64,000 bases of DNA. It comes from Bacteroidales bacterium. GTDB lineage: Bacteria > Bacteroidota > Bacteroidia > Bacteroidales > UBA1402. This document shows positions 1,114 through 34,267 of this stretch, one piece after another (position 1 is the stretch's first letter; each line of letters starts with the position of its first letter). The translations under genes were made by a program, and so were the position numbers. The stretch lies in the NCBI GenBank assembly GCA_017380635.1, contig JAFODP010000020.1:886-64885 (forward strand). The letters run 5' to 3'. The notes beneath the pieces are model-generated. The model saw nothing but the letters and a program-made list of their open reading frames with translations. It made no database searches and was not told where the DNA came from.

Positions 1114-1132
1114 CACTATAAAACTTTGGGTT

Positions 1133-8319: not shown

Positions 8320-10416
8320 ATGAATAATTACATGAAATCTTTTCTTTTAGTGTGTCTGGCTCTTATCGTGCTGAACACCAACGAAATATGTGCATCCAAT
8401 GCTTATCCCGAAAAAACTCCGGCATTTCCCGGCGCAGAAGGCTACGGCCGTTATGTCAGTGGTGGCCGCGGTGGAAAAGTTTATCATGTTACCAATCTGA
8501 ACGATTCCGGCAAAGGCTCTTTCCGCTGGGCCTGTGAACAAAAGGGCGCGCGAACCATTGTCTTCGATGTTTGTGGCACCATACATTTGCAATCTCAATT
8601 AAAACTAACCAACGGCGATGTCACCATTGCTGGACAAACGGCTCCCGGCGACGGTATTTGCGTGGCCGATTGGGATTTCTGTATAGCTGCTCCCAACGTG
8701 ATAATCCGTTATATGAGATTTCGTCCCGGAGATGTTTCCGGAGGTGAACCCGACGGACTCAGTGGTATGGACGGCAAACGTATCATCATCGATCATTGTT
8801 CGGTTTCCTGGAGCGTGGACGAATGTTTGTCGGTGTACGGTAATGAGCATATGACGGTGCAATGGTGCATCATTTCTCAGAGTTTGCGTCATTCTACGCA
8901 TAGCAAACAAGCGCATGGTTATGGCGGCAACTGGGGCGGAAAAGGCGCCAGCTATCATCACAATCTTTTGGCTCATCACGATTCTCGTACACCTCGTTTG
9001 GGAAATCGTCCCACCTACGTGCAACAAGATACCACCGATATTCGCAATAATGTGATGTACAACTGGTCGGGTAATGGCTGTTACGGCGGGGAAGGCATGA
9101 AGGTGAATTTTGTCAACAATTATTATAAGCCGGGGCCGGCCACCGATGCGCGTGCTACAGGAAGTCGTCAGCCTTTGGCGTATCGTATTTGCGGTCTGGG
9201 TGTTTCTACCAAGGCGGGCGATGGCAGTTATCTTATTTGGGGAAAATATTTTGTAGATGGCAATGATAATCCTGATTATCCTTCTTTGTTGAACAAAAAC
9301 TGGGAAATGGGAATTTATCCACAAATTAGTTCTGAAAATCCGGGTTATACAGCTGCTACTAAGGATAGTATCCGTTTGTCAGAACCTTTGCCTTATATGT
9401 ATGTGAGCACGCATACGGCCGCCGATGCCTACGAAAAAGTGTTGGCTTATGCCGGATGTTCGCGCAGTCGAGATAAGTTAGATTCGCTTATTGTGAAGGA
9501 TACTCGTCAGCGTAAGGCTACTTACACGGGGAACGGAGAAGGTGATTTGCCTGGCATTATAGATACGCCTTACGATATCAAGCCGGCTCATGCCGATGCC
9601 GATTGGAGCCCTTGGCCCGAACTCAAGCAAACGCGCCACTACAAAGATGCCGATGGCGATGGCATGGACGATGACTGGGAAATCTCTCAGCACTTGAATC
9701 CGCAGGATGCATCCGATGGCCTTTTGCTCGATGACAAAGGTTATACCATGCTGGAAGTTTATTTGAACTCTTTGGTGGCCGATATCACTGAGGCTCAAAA
9801 TCAGGGCGCTGTGGCCTCGGGCTATATTGAATACGACAATCCAAATGAAAATGTGGTGTTTATTCCTGCTTCAAAAATCGATTTGGATAAGGCAGAGATC
9901 ATCATGGCTTCTGATGGTAAAAAAAAGGCTGTTATCAAAGGCGATAAGGCCGATAGTTTCAGCCATAACGATGTCTTGCGCTTCGAACTATGCAATACGC
10001 AATCAGCAGCTTTCACCATGTCTTTCATTGCTTCCACCAAGCGAGATGATTTTAAACTGAATATTTCGTTCAGCGATTTGGCTTCTGGCGCTTCTCAAAT
10101 CAGTAAAACGCTGTCTATCAGCAATACGGGCGATTGGGAAAAGTACAAGGAATATCAAGTGGATTTGGGGGAACTGCCTGCCGGCAATTGGCGCATGGAT
10201 ATTAAGTTTCTGAGTTCTCGTGGCCAGTACACCGGTAATTTGCAAAAACTTTCTATCATGAAAACGCAGCAAGACGCACTGCCTTCGGTGAACCTTTCCC
10301 ATCAAAAAGAAGCATCCACCATTTACCGTTTAGACGGCCGTCAGGTGAATGCTCCTATGGAATCTTTGCCCGCTGGTATTTACCTTATCGAGCAACAAAA
10401 AATCTTGATAAAATAA
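8320..10416 (+). CDS. secreted pectate lyase (PL1-like) with C-terminal accessory domain and T9SS sorting domain
   Basis: Signal peptide. AFPGAEGYGRYVSGGRGGKVYHVTNLNDSGKGSFRWA is typical of pectate lyases. The C-terminus IYRLDGRQV..LPAGIYLIEQQKILIK is a T9SS CTD. Confidence 0.8.
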   Translation: MNNYMKSFLLVCLALIVLNTNEICASNAYPEKTPAFPGAEGYGRYVSGGRGGKVYHVTNLNDSGKGSFRWACEQKGARTIVFDVCGTIHLQSQLKLTNGDVTIAGQTAPGDGICVADWDFCIAAPNVIIRYMRFRPGDVSGGEPDGLSGMDGKRIIIDHCSVSWSVDECLSVYGNEHMTVQWCIISQSLRHSTHSKQAHGYGGNWGGKGASYHHNLLAHHDSRTPRLGNRPTYVQQDTTDIRNNVMYNWSGNGCYGGEGMKVNFVNNYYKPGPATDARATGSRQPLAYRICGLGVSTKAGDGSYLIWGKYFVDGNDNPDYPSLLNKNWEMGIYPQISSENPGYTAATKDSIRLSEPLPYMYVSTHTAADAYEKVLAYAGCSRSRDKLDSLIVKDTRQRKATYTGNGEGDLPGIIDTPYDIKPAHADADWSPWPELKQTRHYKDADGDGMDDDWEISQHLNPQDASDGLLLDDKGYTMLEVYLNSLVADITEAQNQGAVASGYIEYDNPNENVVFIPASKIDLDKAEIIMASDGKKKAVIKGDKADSFSHNDVLRFELCNTQSAAFTMSFIASTKRDDFKLNISFSDLASGASQISKTLSISNTGDWEKYKEYQVDLGELPAGNWRMDIKFLSSRGQYTGNLQKLSIMKTQQDALPSVNLSHQKEASTIYRLDGRQVNAPMESLPAGIYLIEQQKILIK

Positions 10417-10446: not shown

Positions 10447-11511
10447 TTAAGCCAATCCGGCTTCTTCTCTCAATTTGGCGGCAGTTTCGAAGATGCAAGC
10501 AATCTTGTCGTCGGTAACTTTGTCGTCCATGTTGATGCAGCAAAGTCCGGTCAGGCTTAAATCGCCACTGTCGGCCACCATACGACGGATGTGCGCTTCC
10601 AATTCTTCGCAAGTCATGTTGTTGATGCTGACGGCATCGATGCGCAAGTTCAAGAAACAATGGGGCAAATGTTCGCGCAAAAGCTTGATATCGCCACCCC
10701 AACCGGCATCCAAGAAGGCAAAATGCGGAATCTTGGCCATTTGTGCCGCATGACGATGAGGATCGGGACCACAATAGTGAATGCCGTAAGGTTGGTATTT
10801 CTTCGACCATTCAATATCGTAAGGCAACAAGAATTCTTCGTATTGTTCCTCGCCAATCATCGTGTGCGAACATTCCGAATGCAGATATACCGAGCCCGGA
10901 TAATTGATGACATTACGGTTGACAGAAATGGAATTGCTGCCGCAACGCTTTTGTACATAACTGAAGAAACGTTCTATCACTTGGGCAATCTTGTCGAAAT
11001 AAGCCTTGGTTTCTTCGGGTTGCAACATCATATCGAGCAATATTTCTTCGCCGCGCACATCGAGCGCCAGGTTCAGCACGCCGCTCCAATTGATATCGCC
11101 ACAAACATAGCCGTAACGTTTTTCCAGTTCGTCCATCAGGGCTTCCATGCGCTTGAAAGCGGGACTTTCGAAAGCAGCGTCCACATCTAGGTTCAGGTCG
11201 GGCTTGTGGGCGCAAATCACTTGTGGCGCAGCATCATCGCTGTACACAATCTCGCAACCTAACATTTCCGAAAGCAAGTAACCGGCCGCATTGTGCACGG
11301 CGCCCACTTGGGGCAACATCTTTCCGTGATCCTTGCCCAAACCATATTGTCCGAAACGGCGATACAATTCGTCTTCCATTTTCATTTCACATGCCACGCG
11401 CTTGTCGGGATTGTAGAAAAAATCCTGATCGAAAGTAATGCCGCAATGATGATGCCACCACGAAGGATGGAACACGATTTCAACGGGGAGAATATTTTTG
11501 TTGTCAGCCAT
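10447..11511 (-). CDS. uroporphyrinogen decarboxylase (URO-D)-family protein
   Basis: Overall resemblance to URO-D/MtaA-like TIM-barrel proteins common in Bacteroidales glycan loci. No diagnostic motif was checked. Confidence 0.4.
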   Translation of the reverse strand: MADNKNILPVEIVFHPSWWHHHCGITFDQDFFYNPDKRVACEMKMEDELYRRFGQYGLGKDHGKMLPQVGAVHNAAGYLLSEMLGCEIVYSDDAAPQVICAHKPDLNLDVDAAFESPAFKRMEALMDELEKRYGYVCGDINWSGVLNLALDVRGEEILLDMMLQPEETKAYFDKIAQVIERFFSYVQKRCGSNSISVNRNVINYPGSVYLHSECSHTMIGEEQYEEFLLPYDIEWSKKYQPYGIHYCGPDPHRHAAQMAKIPHFAFLDAGWGGDIKLLREHLPHCFLNLRIDAVSINNMTCEELEAHIRRMVADSGDLSLTGLCCINMDDKVTDDKIACIFETAAKLREEAGLA

Positions 11512-14628: not shown

Positions 14629-15459
14629 TTATGCTATCGGAATCTGAATCACCGATACCCATTGTTCTGGGTCTTCCTGATTCCATGCACCGTCAATGTA
14701 AGAAGTACGGGGATGGCCGGCAATCTTGTAACCTTGTTCTTCCATGTAGGCAAATGCTTCGGTAAATGATTCGTGGAAGCGTTCATAAGGACCGACGTGC
14801 TTCATACAGAGTGCTTTGGGAACAGCATCAAGATGCTTGAATTGGATAATAGCATTGTCTGTACCGATCTCTTCCACCTGTTCGCAATACTCAATATCAA
14901 TGTCGGTGGGGCGATACTCCTTATTGTGCTCAATGGTGAAACAATAGCCTGGAGGTGGGCACTTGCAACCGAGGCGTTGCATCTCGGGACCAATTTTCTC
15001 TACACATAACGGTCCGAGGGCGGCATAATCAGAAATTACTTCGCGATGGCTTGCCACGATAATTTCGGGCAAAGATTGAATACTGAATTTTGATTTATCC
15101 ATTGTTTTAATTTTTTTGCGAGCATTCACCCAGTTGACCAACTGACTGCGTCGTGCCACCAATAATTGCAGTTGTTGTTCCGTCTTCTCTATCTTCTCGT
15201 TCAGTTGCTCGACACTTGGGGCCTGTGCTCCTTCTTCGTACAACTCCTTGATTTCGTCAAGCGAGAAACCGAGACTTTGCAATTGGCGGATAGTGTTGAG
15301 CCTTTGCATCTGTTCAACGCTGTAATAGCGGTAGCCCGTCCACTCATCTACTTCGCAGGGAAACAATAACCCTTTTTGTTCGTAGTGACGCAGGGTCTTC
15401 ACGGTCACTTGCATCATCTGTGAGAACTCTCCGATTTTTAACTTTGTTTTTTCTCTCAT
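14629..15459 (-). CDS. MerR-family transcriptional regulator with GyrI-like effector-binding domain (BmrR-like)
   Basis: N-terminal KIGEFSQMMQVTVKTLRHYEQKGLL helix-turn-helix, a coiled-coil linker and a ~150-aa C-terminal GyrI-like region. Confidence 0.8.
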   Translation of the reverse strand: MREKTKLKIGEFSQMMQVTVKTLRHYEQKGLLFPCEVDEWTGYRYYSVEQMQRLNTIRQLQSLGFSLDEIKELYEEGAQAPSVEQLNEKIEKTEQQLQLLVARRSQLVNWVNARKKIKTMDKSKFSIQSLPEIIVASHREVISDYAALGPLCVEKIGPEMQRLGCKCPPPGYCFTIEHNKEYRPTDIDIEYCEQVEEIGTDNAIIQFKHLDAVPKALCMKHVGPYERFHESFTEAFAYMEEQGYKIAGHPRTSYIDGAWNQEDPEQWVSVIQIPIA

Positions 15460-15629
15460 AATCGTACGATTCTTAGTCTAATTTCGAAATCTGTGGCAAA
15501 GTTAGTGTATGCCCTTGGGGACGAGTCAAGAGAAAATTCAAAATAATTATTTATTTCCCCAAAATCTCTTGCAAAATCATCAACAGCCGCTTAGCTCTTT
15601 GTTTTTCAGCCTATCTCTTGAATAAGCGT

Positions 15630-15693
15630 AAACAAAAAGCAACCTGTTTCATTGACCACCGCGATAAGCATCACGGGAACGAAACAGGCTGCT
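15630..15693 (-). terminator. probable terminator of the hyf/Ehr-like operon
   Basis: On the minus strand, agcagcctgtttc...gaaacaggttgct is followed by TTTTTGTTT. The loop is long and can fold internally. Confidence 0.45.
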
Positions 15694-15755
15694 AAATTTT
15701 TGGAGACTCAAGGCTGCATCTGAGTATTGAGTCCGGACGCAGGAATCAACAACGC

Positions 15756-16514
15756 TCACTTTCTGCCACTGAGGGCGAGCAGGCCGTTGATGATGGTGAG
15801 CGGGTGGGCCGGATTGCCGGGCAGGTAAAGGTCGGTGTCGTGCTCGTCGAGGAAGTGACGGTCGAGGGCAGGAGAGTCGGCGAAGATACCGCCGCTGATG
15901 GCATCGGTACCGGCCAGCACTACAATTTTGGGATCGGGCGTGGCTTCGTAGCAGATGTCGAGCGCGCGGGCCATATTTTCAGAAATCGGACCGGTGATAA
16001 CCACGCCATCGGCATGACGAGGCGAGGCTACGAATTCGAAACCGAAACGACCCATATCGAAGTTGACATTGCCCGTGGCACCCAATTCCCATTCGCCGCT
16101 GTTGTCGCCGGCGGCAGACACTTGACGCAGTTTGAGCGATTTGCCGAAAAGTTTCTTTATTTCGGGACGAACGGCGCTTTTGTCGAAAACGATGGGCTTG
16201 TCTTCGCCTTCCGTTACGATAAGGTTTTCGCGCTTGTTGGTGGCCAATTTATAATCCTGGGTAAAATGAATCTTGTTGGGGAAACAGCGTTCGCATTCGC
16301 CGCAGAAAGCGCAGCGACCCAAATCGAGCTGAAGTTTGCCTTCTTTTTCGAAGAGCGCATGGGTGGGACAAACATCGCAAATGCTTTGGTTGTCGGCACT
16401 TTTGTCTTCTGAAATTACAGGACGTCCACGGAAGATGCCGGGCACTTTGGCCTTGGTGACATCGGGAATATACTGCTTGCCCTGATGCAATAATATTTTG
16501 AGTGTATCTAACAT
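15756..16514 (-). CDS. NuoB/HycG/HyfI-like small subunit fused to an N-terminal ferredoxin-like Cys motif; cluster ligands lost
   Basis: Aligns to E. coli HycG, but CGGCNGCE reads AAGDNSGE, GACGNSGG reads GTDAISGG and PGCPP reads PGNPAHP. The N-terminus has CDVCP...CAFCGECERCFP. Confidence 0.75.
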   Translation of the reverse strand: MLDTLKILLHQGKQYIPDVTKAKVPGIFRGRPVISEDKSADNQSICDVCPTHALFEKEGKLQLDLGRCAFCGECERCFPNKIHFTQDYKLATNKRENLIVTEGEDKPIVFDKSAVRPEIKKLFGKSLKLRQVSAAGDNSGEWELGATGNVNFDMGRFGFEFVASPRHADGVVITGPISENMARALDICYEATPDPKIVVLAGTDAISGGIFADSPALDRHFLDEHDTDLYLPGNPAHPLTIINGLLALSGRK

Positions 16515-16526
16515 AATAGCAATGAT

Positions 16527-18029
16527 TTACAAGTCGTGACCACAATAAGAAAGATTGAAACTCTTGTTGCAGATGGGGAAATCTGAAATTTCGTTGCCTC
16601 TGACAGCCAAGGCCAGCGCCATCCAGTTGTGGAAAGAAGGATCCTTTATTTTGTAGCAAGCCAACTTACCTTCGGCATCGGTGATGGCACAATGACAGAT
16701 TTCGCCGCGCCAGCCTTCGGTGAGCATGATGCTGAAGCAATTGGCCTGTGGTTTCATTTCCGGACGGGCATTGTCTTCGAGGGGCATATTTTTGAGTTGT
16801 TGCGCCAATTGACGGGCATAGGTCATTGACTGAACAATTTCGTAACGACGGATTTGCGTACGCGAATACACATCGCCATGACGACGCGTGATGCTTTCGT
16901 GATGCAACAAGGGATAAGCCAAGTAGGGGTGAGAGCTGCGGATGTCTCGCGCCAGCTCGCTGGCGCGAGCTGCCATGCCCACTGCCCCGATTTCCACCGC
17001 TTGTTCTCTGCTCAGTACGCCCGTTCTTTCAAAGCGCGCCAAAACAGAAGGCATCGTCAGCGTTTTGGCAATCATTTCCAGATAATCTCTTTCGTAAGCT
17101 TGCAACACTACCTGCAAGCGATCGGCCAAGGCGGGCGTGAATACATAAGGCGAATGACCGGGTCGGATGCATCCTTTGCCCAAACGGTTGCCGCACCATT
17201 CTTGCATGAAATTGATGATAGGCGTGCGCAGACGACCAAACACGGCATTACCCAACTGATAAGCCACATCGCCGCAAAGCGCGCTCAAATCGCCGGTATG
17301 AATGGCGATACGTTCAATTTCGGCCGCCAGGGTTCTTTCCAATTGGGTACGCTTGGACACTTCCACACCGCAAAGACTTTCCCACAACATGGCAAAAGCC
17401 GTACCATGACCCACGGCCGTGTCTCCCGCCGTCGATTCGGCCAAAAGACTGCGCTGAATGAGTTTGTCTTTTTGCAACATCAACTTTTCCACATCGCGAT
17501 GCTGATAACCTAAATGGATTTCCAGATGTAGCACTTTTTCGCCATCGCAGATAAAGCGGAAATGTCCCGGCTCGATGATACCTGCGTGAATGGGACCAAC
17601 GCCCACTTCGTGCAGATTTTCACCCTTGATGCTGTAGAAAGGATAATTGTCCATCACCTGTGTTTTGTCGGCGCGGTCGTGCGCGTAGCGCACAGGTTTC
17701 ATCCAAGGATGATCTAAAAATCTGAGACCATGGTTTTCGTTCAATTCTCTTTCGAAGCGTTCCATGGCGTGCACTTTGGCCGAGATGGCGGGCAATTGAG
17801 CCTCTTTTTTCACTTCGCAGGAAAGGATATGGATATCGCCTTGGGCATCGTCGGCCAAACAGGCATACAGACGCAAGCTGTCGCTTTGCGGATAAGCGAA
17901 ATAATTGACACAGTGCAAGTTGATATCGGACAGCGCTTCAACAATTTCCGCATAAAAATCGTCGTAAGACAACAAGGGAATATCAATCAAGGCTACGCAA
18001 GCGCCATTTTTTACAGACAAGGCTTTCAT
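16527..18029 (-). CDS. NuoC-NuoD/HycE/HyfG-like large subunit lacking Ni-Fe ligands
   Basis: GPIHAGIIEPGHFRF and LGYQHRDVEKL are conserved. The L1 motif RxCGxC reads STAGDT. There is no CxxC anywhere, and the C-terminus reads FPICNKSFNLSYCGHDL instead of DPCxxCxxR. Confidence 0.8.
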   Translation of the reverse strand: MKALSVKNGACVALIDIPLLSYDDFYAEIVEALSDINLHCVNYFAYPQSDSLRLYACLADDAQGDIHILSCEVKKEAQLPAISAKVHAMERFERELNENHGLRFLDHPWMKPVRYAHDRADKTQVMDNYPFYSIKGENLHEVGVGPIHAGIIEPGHFRFICDGEKVLHLEIHLGYQHRDVEKLMLQKDKLIQRSLLAESTAGDTAVGHGTAFAMLWESLCGVEVSKRTQLERTLAAEIERIAIHTGDLSALCGDVAYQLGNAVFGRLRTPIINFMQEWCGNRLGKGCIRPGHSPYVFTPALADRLQVVLQAYERDYLEMIAKTLTMPSVLARFERTGVLSREQAVEIGAVGMAARASELARDIRSSHPYLAYPLLHHESITRRHGDVYSRTQIRRYEIVQSMTYARQLAQQLKNMPLEDNARPEMKPQANCFSIMLTEGWRGEICHCAITDAEGKLACYKIKDPSFHNWMALALAVRGNEISDFPICNKSFNLSYCGHDL

Positions 18030-19450
18030 AAGGCAAGCATGGAAATGGATTCGTTAATAAGCGTCAGCAGGATTTCCGGCGGATTGATACCGATATAAGC
18101 TGCTATCAGAAAGAGTATCAGTTGAGAAACAGATTCCCAAGGAGAAAATTTTATGTCGCTAATTTCGCGTTTGGCGGGCAAGAAAATGATTTGCATCACG
18201 CTGCGGGCAATGGCCCAGATAATCACCGTCAGGAAGAAGGCCGTCAGGGCGAACACCAAGATTTGACGCGCATCTATCATGGCTTTGAAAATGAAGAATT
18301 CGCTCACGAAAAGTCCCGATGGCGGAATAGCCATGATACAGAAAAATCCGAAGAGCAACACCATGGCGCCAAAGGGATTATGCTTGAAATATCCGCCCAT
18401 GTCGTCGATGAGTTTGCTTTGGTACAGACGATACATTTGCGTGAAATGCAAGAAAAGGCCTGATTTAACAAAACTGTGCATAATCAGGTGCATGATGGCG
18501 GCCACATAACCCACACCGCCGATGGCAAGACCCAACATCACGATGGCCATGTGTTCCACACCCGAATAAGCCAGCATACGCTTCACGTTGTGCAGTTTCA
18601 CCATATATGCCGAGGCAACAAAGAGCGTAATCAGCGCGGTAATCAACATAAAATGACGACACCATTCGAAGGCTTCAGAATTGGCCACGACACCAAATAC
18701 ACGGAAAATACCGATGAATCCGACATTCACCAAAATACCTGCCAAAAAGGCGCCCGCAGGAGCCGGGGCTTTGTCTTTCGCGTCGATGCCGGCGGTGAAC
18801 ATGGGGAACAAGCCGATTTTGGCGGTGTAACCCGTAAAGATAAAGATGAATGCCAGTTTCAGCCAGAAAGTATCCAGTTGTTGGGCCGAAGCAATCAGGC
18901 ACTTGTAAGAAAGGTCGTGCGCGCCCGCGTGCATCAACGAAAGGCTCAGGAACAAGATACCGATAAACACGAAACTGATGCTGATGGCGCAGATGAACAC
19001 GTATTTCCAGGTGCCTTCCAAGGCCAGTTTGTTACGATGATGATAAATGAGCAGCGCGGCGCTCAAGGTGGTGATTTCGGTGAATATCCAGTTGACAGCC
19101 ACATGATTAGCCAGGAAACTGAGGCTCATGGCGGCTACCAGCAGCACCAAAGCGGCGTAATAAACTGCGGCCGATTCTATTTTAGCCTGAGGACGAGTGA
19201 GGTAAATGTGGCTATGAATGAACACCGGAATACAGATGATGGTGAGCACTACCAAGAGTAATACGCCCAAAGCATCGAAACTGAAATAGTTGAAAATATC
19301 TTCGCGCAAATGACAACAGGCATATACACAGAAACGCACTTGCAACATGGTGAAAACTACCATCAAGGCTTCCTGCACTTTGCTGTTGCGCGAGAAAACC
19401 AGACAGATAACCAAGAATAAAGTGGTGATAAAGTAGATAGATAACATCAT
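18026..19450 (-). CDS. NuoM/NuoN/HyfF-like antiporter-type membrane subunit
   Basis: Polytopic 474-aa protein with KRMLAYSGVEHMAIV. 4-nt overlap with the next gene. Confidence 0.75.
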   Translation of the reverse strand: MMLSIYFITTLFLVICLVFSRNSKVQEALMVVFTMLQVRFCVYACCHLREDIFNYFSFDALGVLLLVVLTIICIPVFIHSHIYLTRPQAKIESAAVYYAALVLLVAAMSLSFLANHVAVNWIFTEITTLSAALLIYHHRNKLALEGTWKYVFICAISISFVFIGILFLSLSLMHAGAHDLSYKCLIASAQQLDTFWLKLAFIFIFTGYTAKIGLFPMFTAGIDAKDKAPAPAGAFLAGILVNVGFIGIFRVFGVVANSEAFEWCRHFMLITALITLFVASAYMVKLHNVKRMLAYSGVEHMAIVMLGLAIGGVGYVAAIMHLIMHSFVKSGLFLHFTQMYRLYQSKLIDDMGGYFKHNPFGAMVLLFGFFCIMAIPPSGLFVSEFFIFKAMIDARQILVFALTAFFLTVIIWAIARSVMQIIFLPAKREISDIKFSPWESVSQLILFLIAAYIGINPPEILLTLINESISMLAL

Positions 19451-19455
19451 AAGGC

Positions 19456-20085
19456 TCAGTCTTTTAATAGGGTTAGACTATCTACGTCGGCATCCTTGAA
19501 TACGTCGCCGATTTTGTTGACGAAGATTCCGAGTATCAATACCGAAGCAAAAATATCGAGCAGCACGCCCAGGTTTACCAACATGGGCATTTCGTTACCC
19601 ACGGCCAGCGACAGGATGAACACGCCGTTTTCTATCACCACATAACCCATCACGTGCGACAGCAATTTGCGTCGCGAGCTGATGAAGTACAAGCCGAAGA
19701 AAATGGCCGAAACGGCAGCCACAAAGAAGATCTTGTCCAGATGTTCGTCTTTAATCATGCTCGCCAGGATAATGGTACCCACCACGATGGCGGTGGTGAT
19801 GATCAGCGAAACGAAATGTGGCAGGAAAGGTTCCGACTCGCGCGTAATCTTGTTGTGTTTGATGATGGTTGACAAGAAATAGGGCACCGCCACCGATTTG
19901 AAGATGATGGTTTCCAACAAAATCCAGAAAAGGTTGAAGGCGCTTACTTCGTGCAATTGGAAGAAGGCTACCAAAAACATCAACACACCTTGTATGCTAA
20001 GCACTTGGATGTAGCCGCGCATACGGTTGGCGATGGACATGTAAAACAATGTCACCAGAAAAATAATCAGCAATATTTCTTTCAT
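19456..20085 (-). CDS. HyfE-like small membrane subunit
   Basis: 209-aa polytopic protein in the position of hyfE within the operon. Confidence 0.6.
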   Translation of the reverse strand: MKEILLIIFLVTLFYMSIANRMRGYIQVLSIQGVLMFLVAFFQLHEVSAFNLFWILLETIIFKSVAVPYFLSTIIKHNKITRESEPFLPHFVSLIITTAIVVGTIILASMIKDEHLDKIFFVAAVSAIFFGLYFISSRRKLLSHVMGYVVIENGVFILSLAVGNEMPMLVNLGVLLDIFASVLILGIFVNKIGDVFKDADVDSLTLLKD

Positions 20086-20987
20086 GACAATTGACCTGAT
20101 AAAAGCAACACGCCGAAAATCACCATCAAGGCGATAGACGTCAATGCGAAAATAAACTGAGGATTATGATTCATGCGCAGACGCGCCATAAATGATTCTA
20201 CAACACCGATGATGACGGCGGCGGCAAACTGGATGCTAAAGAATAGCGGAATGCCCCATTCCAAACCAAGACCTCCCACGAAGAAATTGACAATCAAGGC
20301 GGTGTACATAGCAAATTTCAGGTAGCCGCTGCTCAAGATCAAGCCCAGGTCGAAGCCGCTGTTGTCGAGAATCATCACTTCGTGAATCATGGTCAGCTCC
20401 AAGTGGGTTTTGGGGTCGTCGATGGGAAGGCGACTGTTTTCGATCATGGCAACCATCAACAGAATAAAGGCTGCCAAAGTGGCCAATGCATAACTGACCG
20501 GATCGCCCAAGTGCAGGTGTGCGAAAATATCGTGGAAGGAGGTGTGTCCGGTAAGCAAAGCTACCGAACCGATAATCAGGAAGAAAGCGGGCTCGGCCAG
20601 CATCGAGAACAAGGCTTCGCGCGAAGCGCCCATTCCTTCGAAACTGCTACCGGTATCCAAGGCTCCCAGGATGCTGAACAGCTTGCCCAAGGCCAGGATG
20701 TAAGCAAAGAACACGAAATCGCCGTCGAAAGAAAAAAGCGCGGGTTGTTGTCCGAAAGGAATCACGCTGATGGCGGCCAGCACCGAAGCGCAATAAACGA
20801 TGGGCGCCCAACGGAAAACCCATCCGCAAGTGGGACTATACACCGAGGCTTTGTGCCACAAACGCCAAACATCGTAAATGGGTTGCAGTATGCCCGGACC
20901 TTTACGTCCCGCGCAGATACTTTTGGTGCGTATGATGATGCCGTCGAAGAAACAGGCGGCTATCAGAATCAGAAGCAGACTCAGCAT
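20082..20987 (-). CDS. NuoH/HycD/HyfC-like membrane subunit
   Basis: IENSRLPIDDPKTHLELTMIHEVM matches the NuoH/HycD E..R.PFD..E.E.EL loop. Confidence 0.75.
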   Translation of the reverse strand: MLSLLLILIAACFFDGIIIRTKSICAGRKGPGILQPIYDVWRLWHKASVYSPTCGWVFRWAPIVYCASVLAAISVIPFGQQPALFSFDGDFVFFAYILALGKLFSILGALDTGSSFEGMGASREALFSMLAEPAFFLIIGSVALLTGHTSFHDIFAHLHLGDPVSYALATLAAFILLMVAMIENSRLPIDDPKTHLELTMIHEVMILDNSGFDLGLILSSGYLKFAMYTALIVNFFVGGLGLEWGIPLFFSIQFAAAVIIGVVESFMARLRMNHNPQFIFALTSIALMVIFGVLLLSGQLS

Positions 20988-20990
20988 AAC

Positions 20991-22961
20991 TTAATGGATA
21001 ATGAAAGTTAAAATAATGGTAATCAGAATGAAGATGATACCATATAACATATAGAACTGTAATTTTCCGTTTTGCAGGAAGAGGAAATGCGACATCAGCC
21101 ACTGATAGCCTCTGAGCGGTTTTTCGATGGCTTTGTGTTCCAATTGGTCGAAACTTTCGCTTCGAACTTCGCCGGCTTGTTGCGGATAACTTTCTGTGGG
21201 AATGTCGCTTTGTTTTTCGAAACCAATCAGTCCGTCCAGTGTGTCGCTATAGGTTTTTACGTAGGAAGCTCCGGTGTATTGGATTTTGGGCGTGGCGGCC
21301 GTGTATCCGCATCCCCAGGTTTCGCTTTGACGGATGTTTTGTTTCGATTGCACTTTGTTGCGCAACAGATACAGGATAATCACCAGAGAAAGGAAACAGA
21401 TGCACACCAAAGACAACATGGCCAAATGTTCTTGTCCGACGCTATGGATACTGCTATCAACCTGTGGCAGATTGGCCAATGCCGCTTGCATGGCGCTGTT
21501 GAAAAGCCAAGGACAAAGACCGATGCAAAGCATCAATACTAAACTGATGGCGATGGGAACGAGACGAATTTTGGGCATTTCCTTTACTTCGTGCATTTCG
21601 CTGCGAGCCGTACCTAAAAAGGTGATACCGAACACTTTCGTGAAGCAGATGATGGCCAGTCCGCCAATCAGTACCAATGCCAGAATGGCGAAGGAGGCGC
21701 CTACGGCGCCCGTCAGCGAAGCTTCCTGCATCCAACGGAAAAGGCCGTTGTAGAGCATGAATTCCGACACGAATCCGTTCATGGGTGGCAGTGCGCAGAT
21801 GGCTACCGAGCCCAAGAGGAAGAACAGACAGGTCCAAGGCATTTTCTTGCCCAAACCGCCCATTTGTTCCATGTTCAGGCTGTGCGTGGCATGATAGACA
21901 TTACCGGCCAAAAAGAAAAGGCTCGATTTGAAAAGCGCATGGTTGAGCGTGTGCAGCAAAGCGGCCGCAAATCCCAGATAGGTGAGCAAAGACTGTCCGC
22001 TGCCCACACCGATCAATCCCAAACCGATACCCATGCAGATGATACCGATGTTTTCGATACTCGAATAAGCCAGCAGTTTTTTGATGTTCTTTTGCACGAT
22101 GGCTTGCATGATGCCGTACAATCCGCTGATGGCAGCTAAAGTTAGCACCAGATAGCCCACGCCTTCGTAATGAATGGGTGCGAAGCTGAGCATGCGCAAC
22201 ATGCCGAAGATACCTATTTTAATAATAACGCCCGACATCACGCCCGAAATATGCGCGGGTGCGGCCGGATGGGCATGAGGCAACCAGGTGTGGAAAGGCA
22301 ACAGACCGGCTTTCACGGCAAATCCGAGGAAAAGCAGCACATAGGCCGTGTTGGCTTGTTTTGCGCTGAGCGAGGCAAAACTGTTGAAATCGAAACTGCC
22401 GCTCTGGGCCGACATCATCAGAAAACCTATTGTTAGCAATACCACCGACACATGCGATTGAATGAAAAAGTTGATGCCGGCTTTGATGACATCGGCTTTC
22501 CAACTTTCAAAGATAATCAGCACGAAACTGCTCAGGGCCATGATTTCCCATGCCAGAAGAAAGGCCAGACTGTGTTGTAATACGCAGAGCGCCTGCATAG
22601 AAAGATAAGCCATCAGGTAAGCAAAGATGTGCATGCCGATGTCGTTCTTCTTGTCGAGGTAATGTTGCATATAACCCCAACCATAGAAGGCTCCAAGACT
22701 GAAAACCAAAGAGATAATCAGACTGAACCAGGCCGACAATCCGTCCATGCAAAGACGGACATTGCCTAAAAAGGCTCCTGCATAAAATTGATACTGAAAA
22801 CTTTGTCCTGTCAGGGCGAGCACCGCGGTGATGCTGGTGAAAACAGCGGCTGTACAAATGGCCGAGATGGCGAGAATGCCCTTGTTTCGATTGTTTTTGA
22901 GAATCAGCGTAATGAGCGCTGCGATTGCCAAAATGGCAAAAGAAGAGATGACCGAAATCAT
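20991..22961 (-). CDS. NuoL/HyfB-like antiporter-type membrane subunit
   Basis: 656-aa polytopic protein with LPFHTWLPHAHPAAPAHISGVMSG and KKLLAYSSIENIG. Confidence 0.8.
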   Translation of the reverse strand: MISVISSFAILAIAALITLILKNNRNKGILAISAICTAAVFTSITAVLALTGQSFQYQFYAGAFLGNVRLCMDGLSAWFSLIISLVFSLGAFYGWGYMQHYLDKKNDIGMHIFAYLMAYLSMQALCVLQHSLAFLLAWEIMALSSFVLIIFESWKADVIKAGINFFIQSHVSVVLLTIGFLMMSAQSGSFDFNSFASLSAKQANTAYVLLFLGFAVKAGLLPFHTWLPHAHPAAPAHISGVMSGVIIKIGIFGMLRMLSFAPIHYEGVGYLVLTLAAISGLYGIMQAIVQKNIKKLLAYSSIENIGIICMGIGLGLIGVGSGQSLLTYLGFAAALLHTLNHALFKSSLFFLAGNVYHATHSLNMEQMGGLGKKMPWTCLFFLLGSVAICALPPMNGFVSEFMLYNGLFRWMQEASLTGAVGASFAILALVLIGGLAIICFTKVFGITFLGTARSEMHEVKEMPKIRLVPIAISLVLMLCIGLCPWLFNSAMQAALANLPQVDSSIHSVGQEHLAMLSLVCICFLSLVIILYLLRNKVQSKQNIRQSETWGCGYTAATPKIQYTGASYVKTYSDTLDGLIGFEKQSDIPTESYPQQAGEVRSESFDQLEHKAIEKPLRGYQWLMSHFLFLQNGKLQFYMLYGIIFILITIILTFIIH

Positions 22962-22990: not shown

Positions 22991-22998
22991 CAAAGGTA
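22991..22998 (-). promoter_or_regulatory. -7 promoter box TAccTTTG for the hyf/Ehr-like operon
   Basis: The reverse complement of caaaggta is TACCTTTG, 30 nt upstream of the ATG at 22961. Confidence 0.45.
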
Positions 22999-23043
22999 CG
23001 TACTTTTACGCTTTATGCAAAGATTTTTCTGCTGGAAAATGAC

Positions 23044-23068
23044 GCGAGCGGCCCGCAGGGCCGCTCGC
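23044..23068 (-). terminator. GC-rich 11-bp perfect hairpin 3' of the 903-aa hydrolase gene
   Basis: gcgagcggccc-gca-gggccgctcgc, 27 nt past the stop at 23095. Confidence 0.45.
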
Positions 23069-23094: not shown

Positions 23095-25806
23095 TCAATA
23101 GAACAACCAGTCGATGGCGCTGGATTCTTTTAGGCCTGCGTCGCGGGTCTTGAAATCTTCCATTTGTTCGCTGAATCCAAGTACCAGACAAAGGCCTTTG
23201 CCCAAATTGAGTTTGTGGCTGCCGGCATCGAAATGATAGCTGTGCACATTCACGGCAGGCATGTTTTCAATTTCCAAAGCATTGGCAATCTTGATGTCGG
23301 CTTGTCCGTATTGGTTGGCCGAAGCGTCGGTTTCCAACTTGGGAGCCGGCATATAGCGTTGGCTCGGGCTGATGGGGCTATAGTAACCAATCCACAAGGT
23401 AACAGGCTCTTTGCAAGTAAATTGCAATTCGGTAACGGCATCACGTTGCACTTCGTAGGCAAAACGCATAGCCTTCAGTCCTTGCAATTCGGGAGCGATA
23501 TGCAGAATCTTGAAAGGCTTGTCGGTGTAGAACTTTTCTCCCTCTTTCACGGTGATAAACTGAGCCTTGGCGGGCTTGCTCAAACGCACATCCACTGCCT
23601 TGAATGGCTCGATAACGGTGGCCACCGCTTTAGGATTCTTGATTTGTTCGATGTTGGCAGCAAAATTGGCCAATTCTTCTTCGTACTGAGGCAAGAGTTC
23701 CCACCATTCCTTGTTCTTGGCATTGGCACCGCTGTTGGGAATACGACGCATGGGTGTTTGCATACTGTTGGCATACAGGTAAGTATCGCGTGTCAAGTCT
23801 ACCAATTTGCGGTAATGTTGCAAGCTGCTTTCCATCAAAGTATAAGCGCTGTCCAAGTCGGCCACGTTGTTGGAATATTTGTAGCGAAGCACGTACATGG
23901 CGGCTTCCAATTTGTCGTCGAAACTGTAAGTGAAAGCTTCGTAGCAAAGAATGTCGTTTTTCAAGCGTTCGAATTCATCCTTGTCACCCTTGATGCCTTT
24001 TACCTTGCGGATGGCTTCGGCGGCTTTGCGGGCATGTTCGCGGGTTTCGGCAATGAGTTGGGGAGGCGTTTCGCCCACGTGCGGCTGACCTTTCCATTCG
24101 CGTTCGGCCCAAACTTCCAGTTTTTCACCTTCGGGACCACAAGAATTAGCAAAGTCGGGATACACCGTCCAACGATTGGGATTCACCAACTGGCTCATAA
24201 ACATACCCAAAAGGAAAGTCTGACGATTACCTTCGGTGATACCGAATTTACGCAACAACTTGGTAGAGATTTCGCCGGTTTCTTCGTAGGCAGTGAGGAT
24301 GTTGCGGGCTTGTGCCATGCTGCAATCGTATTTGTCGGCCAAGGCTTTACACCAATAATCGATTTCTTCGTTGCGGTCGCGATCGGCCTTCCAAGCGTAG
24401 CGGGCCCAAGCTTCGTACCAGATCCAGTCGCGATCCATTTCCAACAGACGTTCGCCATTGGCCAAACGGTCGGCAGCATAAGGCCAATCCCAATATGAAT
24501 GCTGCGGATAAAGATGCAAAGCGTTGGCACCATGAACATTATGCATGGCTTGCACACTCTTTTGGATAAAATCGGGGGATCCGTAACGGAAGGGTTCCAG
24601 GTTGGCCAAAATATGTACATTCGACACATGCACGCTACCCAAAGAACTCAAATAACGATGGGTGGCCGTCCAAGGTCCGCGCGGTTCGTAGGTGCAAAGC
24701 GATTCGCCATTGTATTTGTTCATTGTGTACAGATTCTTGTACAGCGGCAGCGCAGCTTCCATCACCATTTGACAGTTGGTGTCGTGTGCACGCACCACGA
24801 TAGGCGGTTCCTCGGTGATACCCAAGTTCTTCAAACCGTCTTGTACACCGGGAATGATGGTCTTGGTAAACCAATTTACGTCGTCTTCCCAAGTATTCAT
24901 GGCTTCGCCCAGGCAAACCAACAAACCAACGTTAGGATATTTTTCGATGAAGGCTTGTACCGATTTGCGCGTGTAATCCGACAACAGTGGCGTGATTTCC
25001 ACTTTTCTGTTTTGGGTGGGAATGCCGTGATATTCAGCAAAAGGCTTGGAAACGATGATGTTATAGAACATTTGAATCACCCAGATACCGCGCTTGTTGG
25101 CTTCGGTGGTAAGGAAACTGAAAATTTCTTCGTTCTTCTTGAAGTCTTCTTCGCTCACTTCCAAAGCATAAGGATAATCGGGCAATTTTACCAAAGAAGC
25201 AAAGGGATGTCCGTTCCACAAATACAACGAGTTCATGCGGTTTTCCACCAACATGTCAAGATACTCGATCCACAGTTCTTTGTCGTAAAACCAGGGGAAT
25301 TCCTTTTCGGTATAAGGATATTCATACACCTGACGTCCGGGCAAGAAATAGGTTTTCTGCACACCGATACAAGTACCGCGCAACACCATTTCGGGCGCGT
25401 CTTGAAAATCGATGTTTTTGGGCAATTTTTCGTTTTCGTCCAAACGGTCGCAAAGTTCCAGGGCGCCATAAAGCACACCGCTTTCGTCGCTACCGGCCAC
25501 CAGAAATTGACCCTTTTTTCCGTAGATATGGAAAGCTTCCTTGCCTTGCACATCGGCATTCCATCCGGCTTGCTGACAAGTCTGACGGAAACTTTCGCTA
25601 TGACAAGAACCCAACACAATCTGTTGTTTGGCATTGTCGGCGATGGTGTAACCGGCATCTTCGAGCGCATCGGCCAATTTTTCGGCAGCGAAAACAGCAC
25701 GTTCACTGCTTGGATTGTCGAGCACGATACTGATATCGCCTTTGCTCTGGCAGCAGCTGCTCAGTAAAAGTGCGCACAAGGCGAATAATGCATACAATTT
25801 CTTCAT
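23095..25806 (-). CDS. putative glycoside hydrolase lipoprotein (GH20b/GH67N-like N-terminal domain plus TIM-barrel-like core; family unassigned)
   Basis: Lipoprotein signal MKKLYALFALCALLLSSC. N-terminal GSDESGVLYGALELCDRL is typical of the GH20b/GH67/GH115-type N domain. Confidence 0.45.
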   Translation of the reverse strand: MKKLYALFALCALLLSSCCQSKGDISIVLDNPSSERAVFAAEKLADALEDAGYTIADNAKQQIVLGSCHSESFRQTCQQAGWNADVQGKEAFHIYGKKGQFLVAGSDESGVLYGALELCDRLDENEKLPKNIDFQDAPEMVLRGTCIGVQKTYFLPGRQVYEYPYTEKEFPWFYDKELWIEYLDMLVENRMNSLYLWNGHPFASLVKLPDYPYALEVSEEDFKKNEEIFSFLTTEANKRGIWVIQMFYNIIVSKPFAEYHGIPTQNRKVEITPLLSDYTRKSVQAFIEKYPNVGLLVCLGEAMNTWEDDVNWFTKTIIPGVQDGLKNLGITEEPPIVVRAHDTNCQMVMEAALPLYKNLYTMNKYNGESLCTYEPRGPWTATHRYLSSLGSVHVSNVHILANLEPFRYGSPDFIQKSVQAMHNVHGANALHLYPQHSYWDWPYAADRLANGERLLEMDRDWIWYEAWARYAWKADRDRNEEIDYWCKALADKYDCSMAQARNILTAYEETGEISTKLLRKFGITEGNRQTFLLGMFMSQLVNPNRWTVYPDFANSCGPEGEKLEVWAEREWKGQPHVGETPPQLIAETREHARKAAEAIRKVKGIKGDKDEFERLKNDILCYEAFTYSFDDKLEAAMYVLRYKYSNNVADLDSAYTLMESSLQHYRKLVDLTRDTYLYANSMQTPMRRIPNSGANAKNKEWWELLPQYEEELANFAANIEQIKNPKAVATVIEPFKAVDVRLSKPAKAQFITVKEGEKFYTDKPFKILHIAPELQGLKAMRFAYEVQRDAVTELQFTCKEPVTLWIGYYSPISPSQRYMPAPKLETDASANQYGQADIKIANALEIENMPAVNVHSYHFDAGSHKLNLGKGLCLVLGFSEQMEDFKTRDAGLKESSAIDWLFY

Positions 25807-32389: not shown

Positions 32390-32393
32390 GCTG

Positions 32394-32642
32394 TCAAATC
32401 AAAACTCTGGTCAAGGCCTGTGCGGCGGCTATTTCGTCTTCTCCTTCAATGTCAATTCTGATGGCATCGCCTTGCTGCAGGCCGAGTGTCATGATGGCCA
32501 GCATACGTTTGGCATTGATGCATTTGTCTTGAAAGTACAGATTGACAGTAGATTGATAGGCCGATGCGGTTTTGGCCAGCACGCCCGCAGGGCGGGCGTG
32601 CATCCCTTCCGCTGCTTGAATACAGTGATTTATCGTTTGCAT
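32394..32642 (-). CDS. ptsH: phosphocarrier protein HPr
   Basis: MQTINHCIQAAEGMHARPAGVLAK has the His15 context G.H.RPA. 82 aa. Start chosen at the internal Met of the 162-aa track ORF. Confidence 0.8.
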   Translation of the reverse strand: MQTINHCIQAAEGMHARPAGVLAKTASAYQSTVNLYFQDKCINAKRMLAIMTLGLQQGDAIRIDIEGEDEIAAAQALTRVLI

Positions 32643-34249: not shown

Positions 34250-34267
34250 GCGAAAAAGGCGGAGGCT

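What the first reader, a model, noticed from the sequence alone, without database searches (positions are those of the whole stretch)
15756..22961. hyf-like six-gene membrane complex that cannot be a [NiFe] hydrogenase (Ehr-type)
The gene order is HyfB-, HyfC-, HyfE-, HyfF-, HyfG- and HyfI-like, with 4-nt overlaps. The large subunit keeps the NuoD/HycE scaffold (GPIHAGIIEPGHFRF, LGYQHRDVEKL). Its L1 motif RxCGxC reads STAGDT, and there is no CxxC anywhere in the protein, so no Ni-Fe site can form. No hyp maturation genes, formate dehydrogenase or separate HycF/NuoI gene lies in the window. Such 'energy-converting hydrogenase-related' complexes have been noted bioinformatically, but as far as I know no substrate or function has been assigned. 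One in a gut or oral Bacteroidales genome is a good target.
Basis: partly seen in the sequence, partly recalled or inferred. Interest (0 to 1): 0.65.

Follow-up and report, generated by a model that had tools for sequence, protein, structure and literature searches.

The report
Hydrogenase-like membrane complex without catalytic metals
A gut Bacteroidales bacterium carries a transcribed six-gene relative of membrane hydrogenases and respiratory complex I that has lost its nickel-iron site and two of its three iron-sulfur clusters, so it cannot make hydrogen and probably moves ions without the usual electron wire; its function is unknown.

Summary
Window 15756-22961 (minus strand) is a self-contained six-gene operon, and each product's best E. 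coli Hyf match is its namesake (HyfB, C, E, F, G, I). The large subunit has no CxxC: RVCGICGFAH is STAGDTAVGH and DPCYSCTDR is NLSYCGHDL.

Two corrections apply. Only two of the five junctions overlap by 4 nt. The last gene is a HyfH(NuoI)-HyfI(NuoB) fusion, so the ferredoxin module is fused rather than absent.

The locus belongs to the known Ehr family, found with the same synteny in at least 597 species genomes, including Geobacter. Papers up to 2026 assign Ehr no function.

The new point is that the Bacteroidota clade has also lost the four proximal-cluster cysteines (here D, G, D, N) and one ferredoxin cluster. One [4Fe-4S] site remains invariant, so no canonical electron path reaches the pocket. 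The remodelled pocket, the coupling loops and the membrane Lys/Glu residues are still invariant. The peripheral subunits are the most conserved, and metatranscriptome contigs cover the operon.

My best guess, at low confidence, is a redox-independent, Mrp-like cation/proton translocator with a regulatory or structural peripheral arm.

The parts
22991..23021 (-). Bacteroidetes-type promoter-like motif, TTTG followed after 19 nt by TACCTTTG, about 30 nt upstream of the first ATG. It lies just downstream of the terminator hairpin of the preceding gene (23044-23068).
   Evidence: Sequence read; hairpin found. The match to the TTTG/TAnnTTTG consensus rests on my own knowledge and was not tested.
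20991..22961 (-). EhrA/HyfB-like antiporter-like subunit (NuoL type, 656 aa). Family-invariant residues are E139, K217, K248, H337, H341, K345 and E400.
   Evidence: Pfam PF00361 at 1e-55; 36% identity to HyfB; alignment to HycC and MbhH; conservation in 59 sequences.
20082..20987 (-). EhrB/HyfC-like NuoH-type subunit (301 aa). It carries a conserved acidic chain (D111, E117, E124, E132, E183, D190, D191, E197, E203, D208, E264) and the loop RLPIDDPKTHLEL.
   Evidence: PF00146; best solved relative is HycD, 7z0s_D; conservation.
19456..20085 (-). EhrC/HyfE-like small membrane subunit (209 aa). Its C-terminal half is NuoK/MrpC-like, with invariant E152 and D177.
   Evidence: PF00420; NCBIfam HyfE model at 7e-18; weak match to MbsG; conservation.
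18026..19450 (-). EhrD/HyfF-like antiporter-like subunit (NuoN/M type, 474 aa). E125, K211, K329 and E384 are conserved; the TM8 lysine position is Asn in the window.
   Evidence: PF00361; 28% identity to HyfF; alignments; conservation.
16527..18029 (-). EhrL/HyfG-like large subunit (500 aa), a NuoC-NuoD fusion with no Ni-Fe ligands.
   Evidence: AlphaFold model with pTM 0.79; best fold match is HycE, 7z0s_E, at TM 0.79.
17553..17597 (-). Beta1-beta2 loop GPIHAGIIEPGHFRF. It is almost entirely invariant across the family and includes E153-P154, aligned with the hydrogenase 'EP' glutamate.
17406..17435 (-). L1-equivalent STAGDTAVGH, replacing RVCGICGFAH. G202 and D203 are invariant in 79 sequences from many phyla.
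16530..16568 (-). L2-equivalent C-terminus NKSFNLSYCGHDL, replacing ...DPCYSCTDR. The protein ends where HycE is cleaved (cleavage site from my own knowledge). N488, K489, S490, S494, Y495, G497 and D499 are invariant.
15756..16514 (-). EhrS small subunit (252 aa), a fusion of a HyfH/NuoI-like ferredoxin domain (about residues 1-100) with a HyfI/NuoB-like domain (about residues 120-250).
16278..16379 (-). Remnant ferredoxin motifs CDVCP ... CAFCGECERCFP. C49, C68, C71 and C74 are invariant (62-63 of 63 sequences) and make one [4Fe-4S] site. The first three Cys of motif 1 and the canonical fourth Cys of motif 2 are missing, so the second cluster is lost.
15765..16157 (-). NuoB-like domain in which the four proximal-cluster Cys are D137 (16104-16106), G140 (16095-16097), D204 (15903-15905) and N234 (15813-15815).
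   Evidence: Alignments to MbhJ, HycG, Nqo6 and HyfI; family table; coordinates.
15626..15740 (-). Stable hairpins followed by UUUUUGUUU, the likely intrinsic terminator of the operon.
   Evidence: dG -43.8 kcal/mol, z -5.6, 0 of 200 shuffles fold as well.

Best explanation
The six genes encode an Ehr (energy-converting-hydrogenase-related) complex. Its membrane arm has two antiporter-like subunits, a NuoH-like subunit and a HyfE/NuoK-like subunit. Its peripheral arm is a NuoC-NuoD-like large subunit plus a NuoI-NuoB-like small subunit.

Several points are shown by the data:
- The complex has no Ni-Fe ligands and no proximal [4Fe-4S] ligands, and only one of the two ferredoxin-type clusters.
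- The pocket that replaced the Ni-Fe site is invariant across phyla (E153, D203, T/S204, R441, N488-K489-S490, S494-Y495, D499).
- The membrane subunits keep the canonical Lys/Glu/His transport residues.
- The operon has its own promoter-like motif and terminator-like hairpin, and metatranscriptome contigs cover it.

The mechanism is inferred. No chain of clusters leads to the pocket, so the complex cannot run the usual redox-driven pumping. It most likely works as a secondary, Mrp-like cation/proton (H+/Na+) translocator, or as a gradient-driven conformational machine. In this reading the highly conserved peripheral arm acts as a gate or charge-sensing lid through D203, R441, E153 and the NuoH-type loop. 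The orphan [4Fe-4S] cluster would be a structural relic or a redox sensor, much like the off-pathway cluster N7 of complex I.

The confidence given here is for the mechanism. Confidence in the identity (an Ehr member, not a hydrogenase) is about 0.9.
For: Identity: one-to-one matches to Hyf subunits and the Hyf gene order. The same synteny in about 70 of 80 fetched loci, drawn from at least 597 species genomes that include Geobacter, Geomonas and Melainabacteria. The published Ehr description matches, with NuoC-D and NuoI-B fusions plus HyfB, HyfF, NuoH and HyfE.

No electron wire: the L1 and L2 cysteines are absent. The proximal-cluster ligands are D, G, D, N. The cluster-less loci form one Bacteroidota clade, apart from one nested CCCC member (L027), and follow the pattern D-x-D-N with a variable second position, whereas relatives in other phyla keep CCCC and two full CxxCxxCxxxCP motifs.

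Still functional: residues invariant in 79 sequences concentrate in the beta1-beta2 loop, the L1/L2 equivalents and the RG motif. The transport residues are invariant. The peripheral subunits are the most conserved parts in the cluster-less type, with mean pairwise identity of 62% for HI and 55% for G against 46-48% for B and F. Metatranscriptome contigs from four runs cover the operon, including one 2.3-kb contig spanning the F, E and C genes.

Stand-alone operon: there is no conserved partner gene in Bacteroidota-type loci. Carriers are labelled as Saprospiraceae, Flavobacteriales, Cytophagales and Thermoflavifilum, which by my own knowledge are mostly aerobes, so dependence on low-potential fermentative donors seems unlikely. 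As a weak hint of ion homeostasis, 21 non-Bacteroidota Ehr loci have a PtsN-like HTH+EIIA gene directly upstream.
Against: No transport or biochemical data exist for any Ehr. Mrp antiporters need small subunits (MrpB, E, F, G) that are absent here. An antiporter would not obviously need a 750-residue peripheral arm that is the best-conserved part of the complex. Cluster-bearing relatives share the same pocket, which suggests the ancestral pocket chemistry was redox. The one remaining [4Fe-4S] site is strictly conserved. I could not measure distances, because no coordinates were available and the pocket loops of the monomer model have pLDDT below 50. Whole-genome context, such as partner proteins encoded elsewhere, could not be examined.
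Confidence: 0.35

Rival explanations
1. The complex is still an oxidoreductase. The remaining [4Fe-4S] cluster accepts electrons from ferredoxin or flavodoxin and reduces an acceptor bound close to it or in a remodelled pocket, such as menaquinone, a sulfur compound or a thiol. That reaction drives ion pumping as in MBS, NDH-1 or Fpo.
For: C49, C68, C71 and C74 are invariant in 63 sequences. Relatives with all three clusters share the same pocket residues. The coupling loops and E-channel residues are kept. Geobacter Ehr subunits rise in abundance with formate as electron donor.
Against: All four proximal-cluster ligands are gone, and the one semi-conserved Cys (position 140) is Gly here and Y, T, A, V or H in relatives. 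By my own knowledge of complex I geometry, the medial cluster lies more than 20 A from the pocket, beyond physiological tunnelling distance. The Tyr87 equivalent of NuoD is Gly202. No donor or acceptor genes are linked.
Confidence: 0.2
2. The complex couples ions to non-redox chemistry. The invariant polar pocket (Glu, Asp, Arg, Ser, Tyr, Asp, and His in Bacteroidota) binds a metal ion or small molecule. It catalyses a reaction such as CO2/bicarbonate interconversion or another (de)protonation, driven by or driving the ion gradient. The analogy is with CupA on cyanobacterial NDH-1 and with DabAB.
For: The pocket is under strict selection with or without the electron wire. The replacements D137, D204 and N234 are themselves conserved, which looks like a new cation or H-bond site rather than drift. 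SulP/STAS transporters neighbour ehr in 4 of 80 loci.
Against: No carbonic-anhydrase-like motif or domain was detected. H208 and H498 are not conserved outside Bacteroidota. The SulP linkage is rare. There is no experimental precedent for chemistry at this site without electrons.
Confidence: 0.12
3. The locus is a decaying relic of a hydrogenase operon with no present function.
For: The catalytic metal sites are lost. A 2026 paper treats Geobacter Ehr as non-functional.
Against: All six reading frames are intact. There are hundreds of invariant residues across phyla and strong conservation of the peripheral arm. The substituted residues are conserved rather than random. The operon is transcribed in gut metatranscriptomes. 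The family occurs in at least 597 species genomes.
Confidence: 0.03

Closest known systems
Ehr complex of Geobacter sulfurreducens (ehrA-1, A-2, B, C, D, L, S; GSU0739-0745; Coppi 2005, Marreiros 2013) and the Ehr loci of Melainabacteria and Margulisbacteria
   Same: The subunit set, gene order and NuoC-D and NuoI-B fusions are the same. The AGD[TS] and NKSFNLSYCGxDL motifs replace L1 and L2 in both. Large-subunit identity is 42-45%.
   Different: The Geobacter type keeps CCCC in the NuoB-like domain and two complete ferredoxin motifs, giving three clusters. It often has a second HyfB-like gene and a PtsN-like HTH+EIIA gene upstream. The window has one cluster, one HyfB-like gene and no such regulator.
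E. coli hydrogenase-4 (hyfABCDEFGHIJ, FHL-2) and FHL-1 (Hyc, PDB 7Z0S)
   Same: The gene order is B-C-E-F-G-H-I. HycE, HycD, HycC and HycG are the best solved relatives of the respective subunits. The large subunit has the same fold at TM 0.79.
   Different: Identity is only 27-36%. There are no Ni-Fe cysteines, no proximal cluster and one ferredoxin cluster. HyfA, HyfD, HyfJ, HyfR, FocB, formate dehydrogenase and hyp genes are all absent from the operon and the window. H and I are fused.
Pyrococcus MBH (6CFW) and MBS/Mbx (6U8Y)
   Same: These are complex-I-like modules that couple a peripheral-arm reaction to Na+/H+ movement through Mrp-type subunits. Their chains are significant sequence and fold relatives.
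   Different: MBH and MBS have 13-14 subunits, including the small Mrp subunits and three Fe-S clusters. MBS/Mbx is the only non-hydrogenase relative of this kind with a known substrate (my own knowledge). MbsL is a more distant match (6e-16) than HycE (9e-38).
Respiratory complex I / NDH-1 (NuoB, C, D, H, I, K, L, N)
   Same: The core modules are homologous. The antiporter-like Lys/Glu residues, the NuoH loop and the NuoK glutamate are conserved.
   Different: There is no N2 cluster, and the quinone-ligand Tyr87 equivalent is Gly. No NuoA, J, M, E, F or G genes are present.
Mrp multisubunit cation/proton antiporter
   Same: It has antiporter-like subunits and a NuoK/MrpC-like subunit that work without any redox input. 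This is the proposed functional analogy.
   Different: Mrp has no NuoH-, NuoD- or NuoB-like subunits, and it has MrpB, E, F and G, which are absent here. The window complex is therefore not a member of that family.

Membership tests
Group 4 [NiFe]-hydrogenase (Hyf/Hyc/Ech/Mbh) | L1 (RxCGxCxxxH) and L2 (DPCxxCxx[HR]) cysteine pairs in the large subunit | tested here: not met
   The aligned positions are A201, T204, S494 and G497, and the protein has no CxxC. The same holds in about 200 relatives.
Group 4 [NiFe]-hydrogenase (Hyf/Hyc/Ech/Mbh) | Four Cys binding the proximal [4Fe-4S] cluster in the small subunit | tested here: not met
   The aligned residues are D137, G140, D204 and N234, against MbhJ, HycG, Nqo6 and HyfI.
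Group 4 [NiFe]-hydrogenase (Hyf/Hyc/Ech/Mbh) | hyp maturation genes and an endopeptidase in the genome | not testable with these tools
   None occur in the 64-kb window. The rest of the MAG could not be scanned.
Group 4 [NiFe]-hydrogenase (Hyf/Hyc/Ech/Mbh) | Homologous subunit set and hyf-like gene order | tested here: met
   Each gene's best Hyf match is its namesake, in the order B-C-E-F-G-(H-I).
Ehr (energy-converting hydrogenase-related complex) | A group-4-like cluster whose large subunit lacks the Ni-Fe ligands | tested here: met
Ehr (energy-converting hydrogenase-related complex) | Subunit set of HyfB-like, NuoH-like, HyfE-like, HyfF-like, a NuoC-NuoD fusion and a NuoI-NuoB fusion | tested here: met
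   This matches the description quoted.
Ehr (energy-converting hydrogenase-related complex) | Orthology with the named Ehr of Geobacter and Melainabacteria | tested here: met
   Geobacter, Geomonas and Gastranaerophilales loci share the synteny at 42-45% large-subunit identity. All share the AGD[TS] and NKSFNLSYCG motifs and group apart from HyfG in an NJ tree without support values.
Ehr (energy-converting hydrogenase-related complex) | Fe-S clusters retained in EhrS, as in the Geobacter type (three clusters) | tested here: not met
   Only one cluster site remains. This is a trait of the Bacteroidota clade. Whether cluster retention is part of the family definition is unclear, because Marreiros 2013 could not be read.
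Respiratory complex I / NDH-1 | N2 cluster, quinone-binding Tyr/His pair, and NuoA and NuoJ subunits | tested here: not met
   The N2 ligands are absent. The Tyr87 (Nqo4) position is Gly202. No NuoA or NuoJ genes are in the operon.
Mrp cation/proton antiporter | Seven-subunit MrpA-G set without a peripheral arm | tested here: not met
   Only the antiporter-like and MrpC/NuoK-like parts are shared, and a full peripheral arm is present.
MBS/Mbx | 13-subunit Mrp-containing complex with three Fe-S clusters and an MbsL-type pocket | tested here: not met
   There are six genes and one cluster. MbsL is a weaker relative than HycE.

The most novel reading that the evidence does not exclude
This would be a complex-I-superfamily machine that keeps a complete, strongly conserved peripheral arm and coupling apparatus but has no electron path to its former active site. 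Energy transduction in this architecture would then run on something other than redox chemistry, such as an ion gradient, ligand or metal binding, or protonation of the invariant D203/R441/E153 pocket. That would make the Bacteroidota Ehr clade a natural 'redox-free' version of the complex I coupling mechanism.
Probability: 0.3. Interest if true: 0.8.

Novelty: new variant of a known kind. Interest (0 to 1): 0.55.

Why it matters
Ehr complexes have been known from genomes since 2005, occur in hundreds of species across many phyla, and still have no assigned function. The Bacteroidota variant narrows the question. The pocket, the coupling loops and the ion-translocation residues are all kept under strong selection even though the electron wire is gone. 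So either the family's core function never needed electrons, or this clade has re-purposed the machine.

Either answer bears on how complex I-type enzymes couple events in the peripheral arm to ion movement. The variant is common in gut and environmental Bacteroidota, where databases annotate it as NADH dehydrogenase or hydrogenase, and metabolic reconstructions should not count it as either.

Tried and rejected
1. A replacement Fe-S or metal site built from the extra cysteines of the large subunit (C40, C57, C252, C445, C447, C487). These are invariant among close relatives but vary in deeper Bacteroidota-type and other Ehr sequences, so I rejected the idea.

2. A conserved partner enzyme next to the operon, such as formate dehydrogenase or NuoEF as proposed for Margulisbacteria. 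Clustering the flanking ORFs of 80 loci found none. The only recurrent neighbour is an HTH+PTS_EIIA_2 gene in non-Bacteroidota loci, and it is absent from Bacteroidota-type loci and from the window.

3. Deciding from the literature which HycF/NuoI-type cluster is retained. The papers gave the order N6a-N6b-N2 but no cysteine assignments. The retained cluster is inferred to be the medial one only because Melainabacteria-type Ehr keeps this cluster together with the proximal one.

4. Reading Marreiros et al. 2013 to see whether the loss of Fe-S ligands was already described. The paper is not held.

5. Using the AlphaFold monomer to inspect the pocket. The pocket loops (residues 143-156 and 485-500) have pLDDT below 50 and no coordinates are returned. 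The model was used only for fold assignment.

6. The sigma-70 promoter scan was uninformative, with 16 hits against 10.6 expected.

Full report
**Observation.** Six ORFs lie head to tail on the minus strand at exactly the reported coordinates. The gaps between them are +3, -4, +5, -4 and +12 nt, so two of the five junctions are 4-nt overlaps. Pfam and NCBIfam assign, in order:
- a NuoL/HyfB-type antiporter-like subunit (656 aa);
- a NuoH/HyfC type (301 aa);
- a HyfE/NuoK type (209 aa);
- a NuoN/HyfF type (474 aa);
- a NuoC-NuoD fusion of the HyfG/HycE type (500 aa);
- a 252-aa protein whose C-terminal half is NuoB/HyfI-like and whose N-terminal 100 residues match HyfH/HycF/NuoI ferredoxin models.

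All matches fall below the curated equivalog cut-offs. I fetched the E. coli K-12 hyf operon and ran BLASTP. Each window protein's best Hyf match is its namesake, at 27-36% identity, and the order B-C-E-F-G-(H-I) is the hyf order without A, D and J.

**Metal sites.** Alignment with HycE of the solved formate hydrogenlyase (7z0s_E) and with HyfG puts STAGDTAVGH on RVCGICGFAH. It puts the C-terminus NLSYCGHDL on DPCYSCTDR. The four Ni-Fe ligand positions are therefore Ala, Thr, Ser and Gly. The protein has 15 cysteines but no CxxC. By my own knowledge of HycE processing, it ends where HycE is cleaved.

The small subunit, aligned to MbhJ, HycG, Nqo6 and HyfI, has Asp, Gly, Asp and Asn at the four cysteines that bind the proximal [4Fe-4S] cluster, the N2 equivalent. 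In the ferredoxin-like domain only CDVCP and CAFCGECERC remain. C49, C68, C71 and C74 are the set that binds one cluster in a 2x[4Fe-4S] ferredoxin fold. The three first cysteines of motif 1 and the canonical fourth cysteine of motif 2 are missing.

**Family.** The large subunit has thousands of database relatives, and the source is an uncultured Bacteroidales MAG from ruminant gut. The same sequence, or near relatives, occurs in pig, bovine and manure metagenomes.

The 80 best loci come from Bacteroidota, Spirochaetota, Geobacter and Geomonas, Desulfuromonadales, Melainabacteria, Verrucomicrobiota, Planctomycetota, Lentisphaerota, Omnitrophota and others. About 70 of them show the same B-C-E-F-G-HI order, often with a second HyfB-like gene in front, and the HI fusion is universal. 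This is the Ehr family named in Geobacter. The published description lists NuoC-D and NuoI-B fusions plus HyfB, HyfF, NuoH and HyfE, which matches exactly. Papers from 2019 to 2026 state that Ehr lacks the CxxC motifs and that its function is unknown. No Ehr structure is in the PDB: the best match to the predicted fold is HycE at 24% identity.

**What is conserved.** Across 79 large subunits from many phyla, the invariant residues cluster in four places:
- the beta1-beta2 loop (H140 ... G145-P146-x-H148-A149-G150-x-I152-E153-P154-G155-x-F157-R158-F159-x-C161);
- the L1 equivalent (E198, G202, D203, T/S204);
- the E438-G439-W440-R441-G442-E443 motif, which aligns with the conserved RG of hydrogenases;
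- the C-terminus (N488, K489, S490, L493, S494, Y495, G497, D499).

The former active site has been rebuilt into a new, strictly conserved polar pocket rather than left to decay.

The membrane subunits keep the canonical residues:
- the HyfB-like subunit keeps E139, K217, K248, H337, H341, K345 and E400;
- the HyfF-like subunit keeps E125, K211, K329 and E384;
- the NuoH-like subunit keeps an acidic chain and the RLPIDDPKTHLEL loop;
- the HyfE-like subunit keeps E152, the NuoK/MrpC glutamate, and D177.

**A Bacteroidota-specific variant.** Ehr small subunits from other phyla keep all four NuoB cysteines and two full CxxCxxCxxxCP motifs, giving three clusters as in Hyf. Melainabacteria-type proteins keep the proximal cluster plus the same single ferredoxin cluster that the window retains. 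The Bacteroidota clade has D-x-D-N instead (variants include DCDN, DTDN, DADN and DVEA; DGDN here), with a freely varying second position, and only the one ferredoxin cluster.

In an NJ tree of large subunits rooted on HyfG, all cluster-less loci fall in one clade. One nested member (L027) keeps CCCC. The tree has no support values. Among 150 representatives at 50% identity, about 60 are CCCC and about 20 or more lack the cysteines.

The peripheral subunits are the most conserved parts of the complex in both types. In the cluster-less type, mean pairwise identity is 62% for HI and 55% for G, against 46-48% for the antiporter-like subunits. So the arm is not a relic.

**Context and expression.** The operon is insulated. 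A GC-rich terminator hairpin of the upstream gene (23044-23068) is followed by TTTG-N19-TACCTTTG (22991-23021), which by my own knowledge matches the Bacteroidetes promoter consensus. After the last gene there is a stable hairpin plus a U-run (dG -43.8 kcal/mol, z -5.6).

The neighbours are glycoside hydrolases, an MFS transporter and a MerR/GyrI-like regulator. Nothing in the 64-kb window encodes Hyp proteins, formate dehydrogenase or another hydrogenase. No flanking gene is conserved among Bacteroidota-type loci. Contigs from four gut metatranscriptome runs, 90-99% identical, cover nearly the whole operon at depths similar to the neighbours, and one 2.3-kb contig spans three genes. DNA carry-over cannot be excluded.

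**Mechanism.** It is shown that there is no Ni-Fe site, no proximal cluster and one remaining cluster, together with an intact and constrained pocket, coupling loops and transport residues. The rest is inferred.

Melainabacteria-type Ehr keeps this ferredoxin cluster together with the proximal one, so the retained cluster is probably the medial one. Without the proximal cluster it would lie more than 20 A from the pocket. That figure comes from my own knowledge of complex I and MBH geometry and was not measured here. Canonical redox-driven pumping is therefore excluded.

My best-supported reading, at confidence about 0.35, is a secondary Mrp-like cation/proton translocator. In it the peripheral arm gates or senses charge through D203, R441, E153 and the NuoH loop, and the orphan cluster is structural or a redox sensor, as with cluster N7 (mentioned).

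The rivals are a shortened redox path from the remaining cluster (0.2), non-redox chemistry at a metal- or ligand-binding pocket (0.12), and a dead relic (0.03, contradicted by the conservation pattern and by transcription).

Two weak circumstantial hints point to ion homeostasis. A PtsN-like HTH+EIIA gene sits directly upstream of 21 non-Bacteroidota Ehr operons. The variant also occurs in lineages that are mostly aerobic by my own knowledge.

**Verdict.** The locus is a member of the known but uncharacterised Ehr family. It belongs to a Bacteroidota variant that has lost two of its three Fe-S clusters. I found no mention of this variant in the accessible literature, but I could not read the primary Ehr paper. 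Interest is moderate: this is a real, widespread, expressed system of unknown function, with a feature that sharpens the mechanistic question, found here in an uncultured organism.

Noticed in passing
window 30914-34738 (minus strand): A phosphotransferase system is encoded here: EIIC-EIIB (30914-32389), Enzyme I (32630-34249) and EIIA-Glc type (34268-34738), next to a GH141-like gene (34749-36635). By my own knowledge a sugar PTS is unusual in Bacteroidales.
   Followed up: no
window about 54000-64000: GC content drops to 28-35%. The island encodes a RyR-domain protein (56149-57150), an M48 peptidase (57158-58051), a TIR-domain protein (59018-60382) and an nSTAND1 NTPase (60387-63710). It looks like an acquired defence island.
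   Followed up: no
window 135-5604: This stretch holds an AAA_21/AbiEii-like ATPase, a Sel1-repeat protein, split FtsK-gamma and FtsK/SpoIIIE pieces, and a short DNA polymerase III alpha fragment (360 aa). It may be a remnant of a mobile element.
   Followed up: no
window 23095-25806, 8320-10416 and 10447-11511: Three large proteins (903, 698 and 354 aa) sit among glycoside hydrolase genes and have no Pfam match. They are candidates for uncharacterised carbohydrate-active enzymes.
   Followed up: no
window 14629-15459: A MerR-family regulator with a GyrI-like ligand domain lies 296 nt downstream of the operon and has its own TAACTTTG promoter-like motif. Its metatranscriptome contig depth (30-48) is higher than that of the ehr genes (3-24). 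It is not conserved next to ehr elsewhere.
   Followed up: partly
Loci L042, L044, L047, L049-L051, L056, L058, L059, L062, L066, L069, L070, L072-L075, L078, L081, L082 and L086, directly upstream of the ehr genes: A roughly 225-aa protein with HTH_17 and PTS_EIIA_2 (PtsN-like) domains sits next to the first ehr gene in 21 non-Bacteroidota loci, within 0-40 nt on the same strand in the 11 loci where this was measured. It is a candidate regulator that would link Ehr to PTS-Ntr signalling.
   Followed up: partly
Loci L012, L029, L033 and L058: A SulP/STAS-family anion transporter lies next to the ehr operon in 4 of 80 loci.
   Followed up: no
Loci L008-L012, L015, L016, L021, L024, L049, L059, L069, L084 and L086: Many Ehr operons carry two tandem HyfB-like genes, as Geobacter does with ehrA-1 and ehrA-2. 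The window has only one.
   Followed up: no
window 43963-46178 and 43065-43928: The window encodes pta-ackA (phosphotransacetylase and acetate kinase) and a CdaA-type diadenylate cyclase, which is consistent with a fermentative, c-di-AMP-using organism.
   Followed up: no
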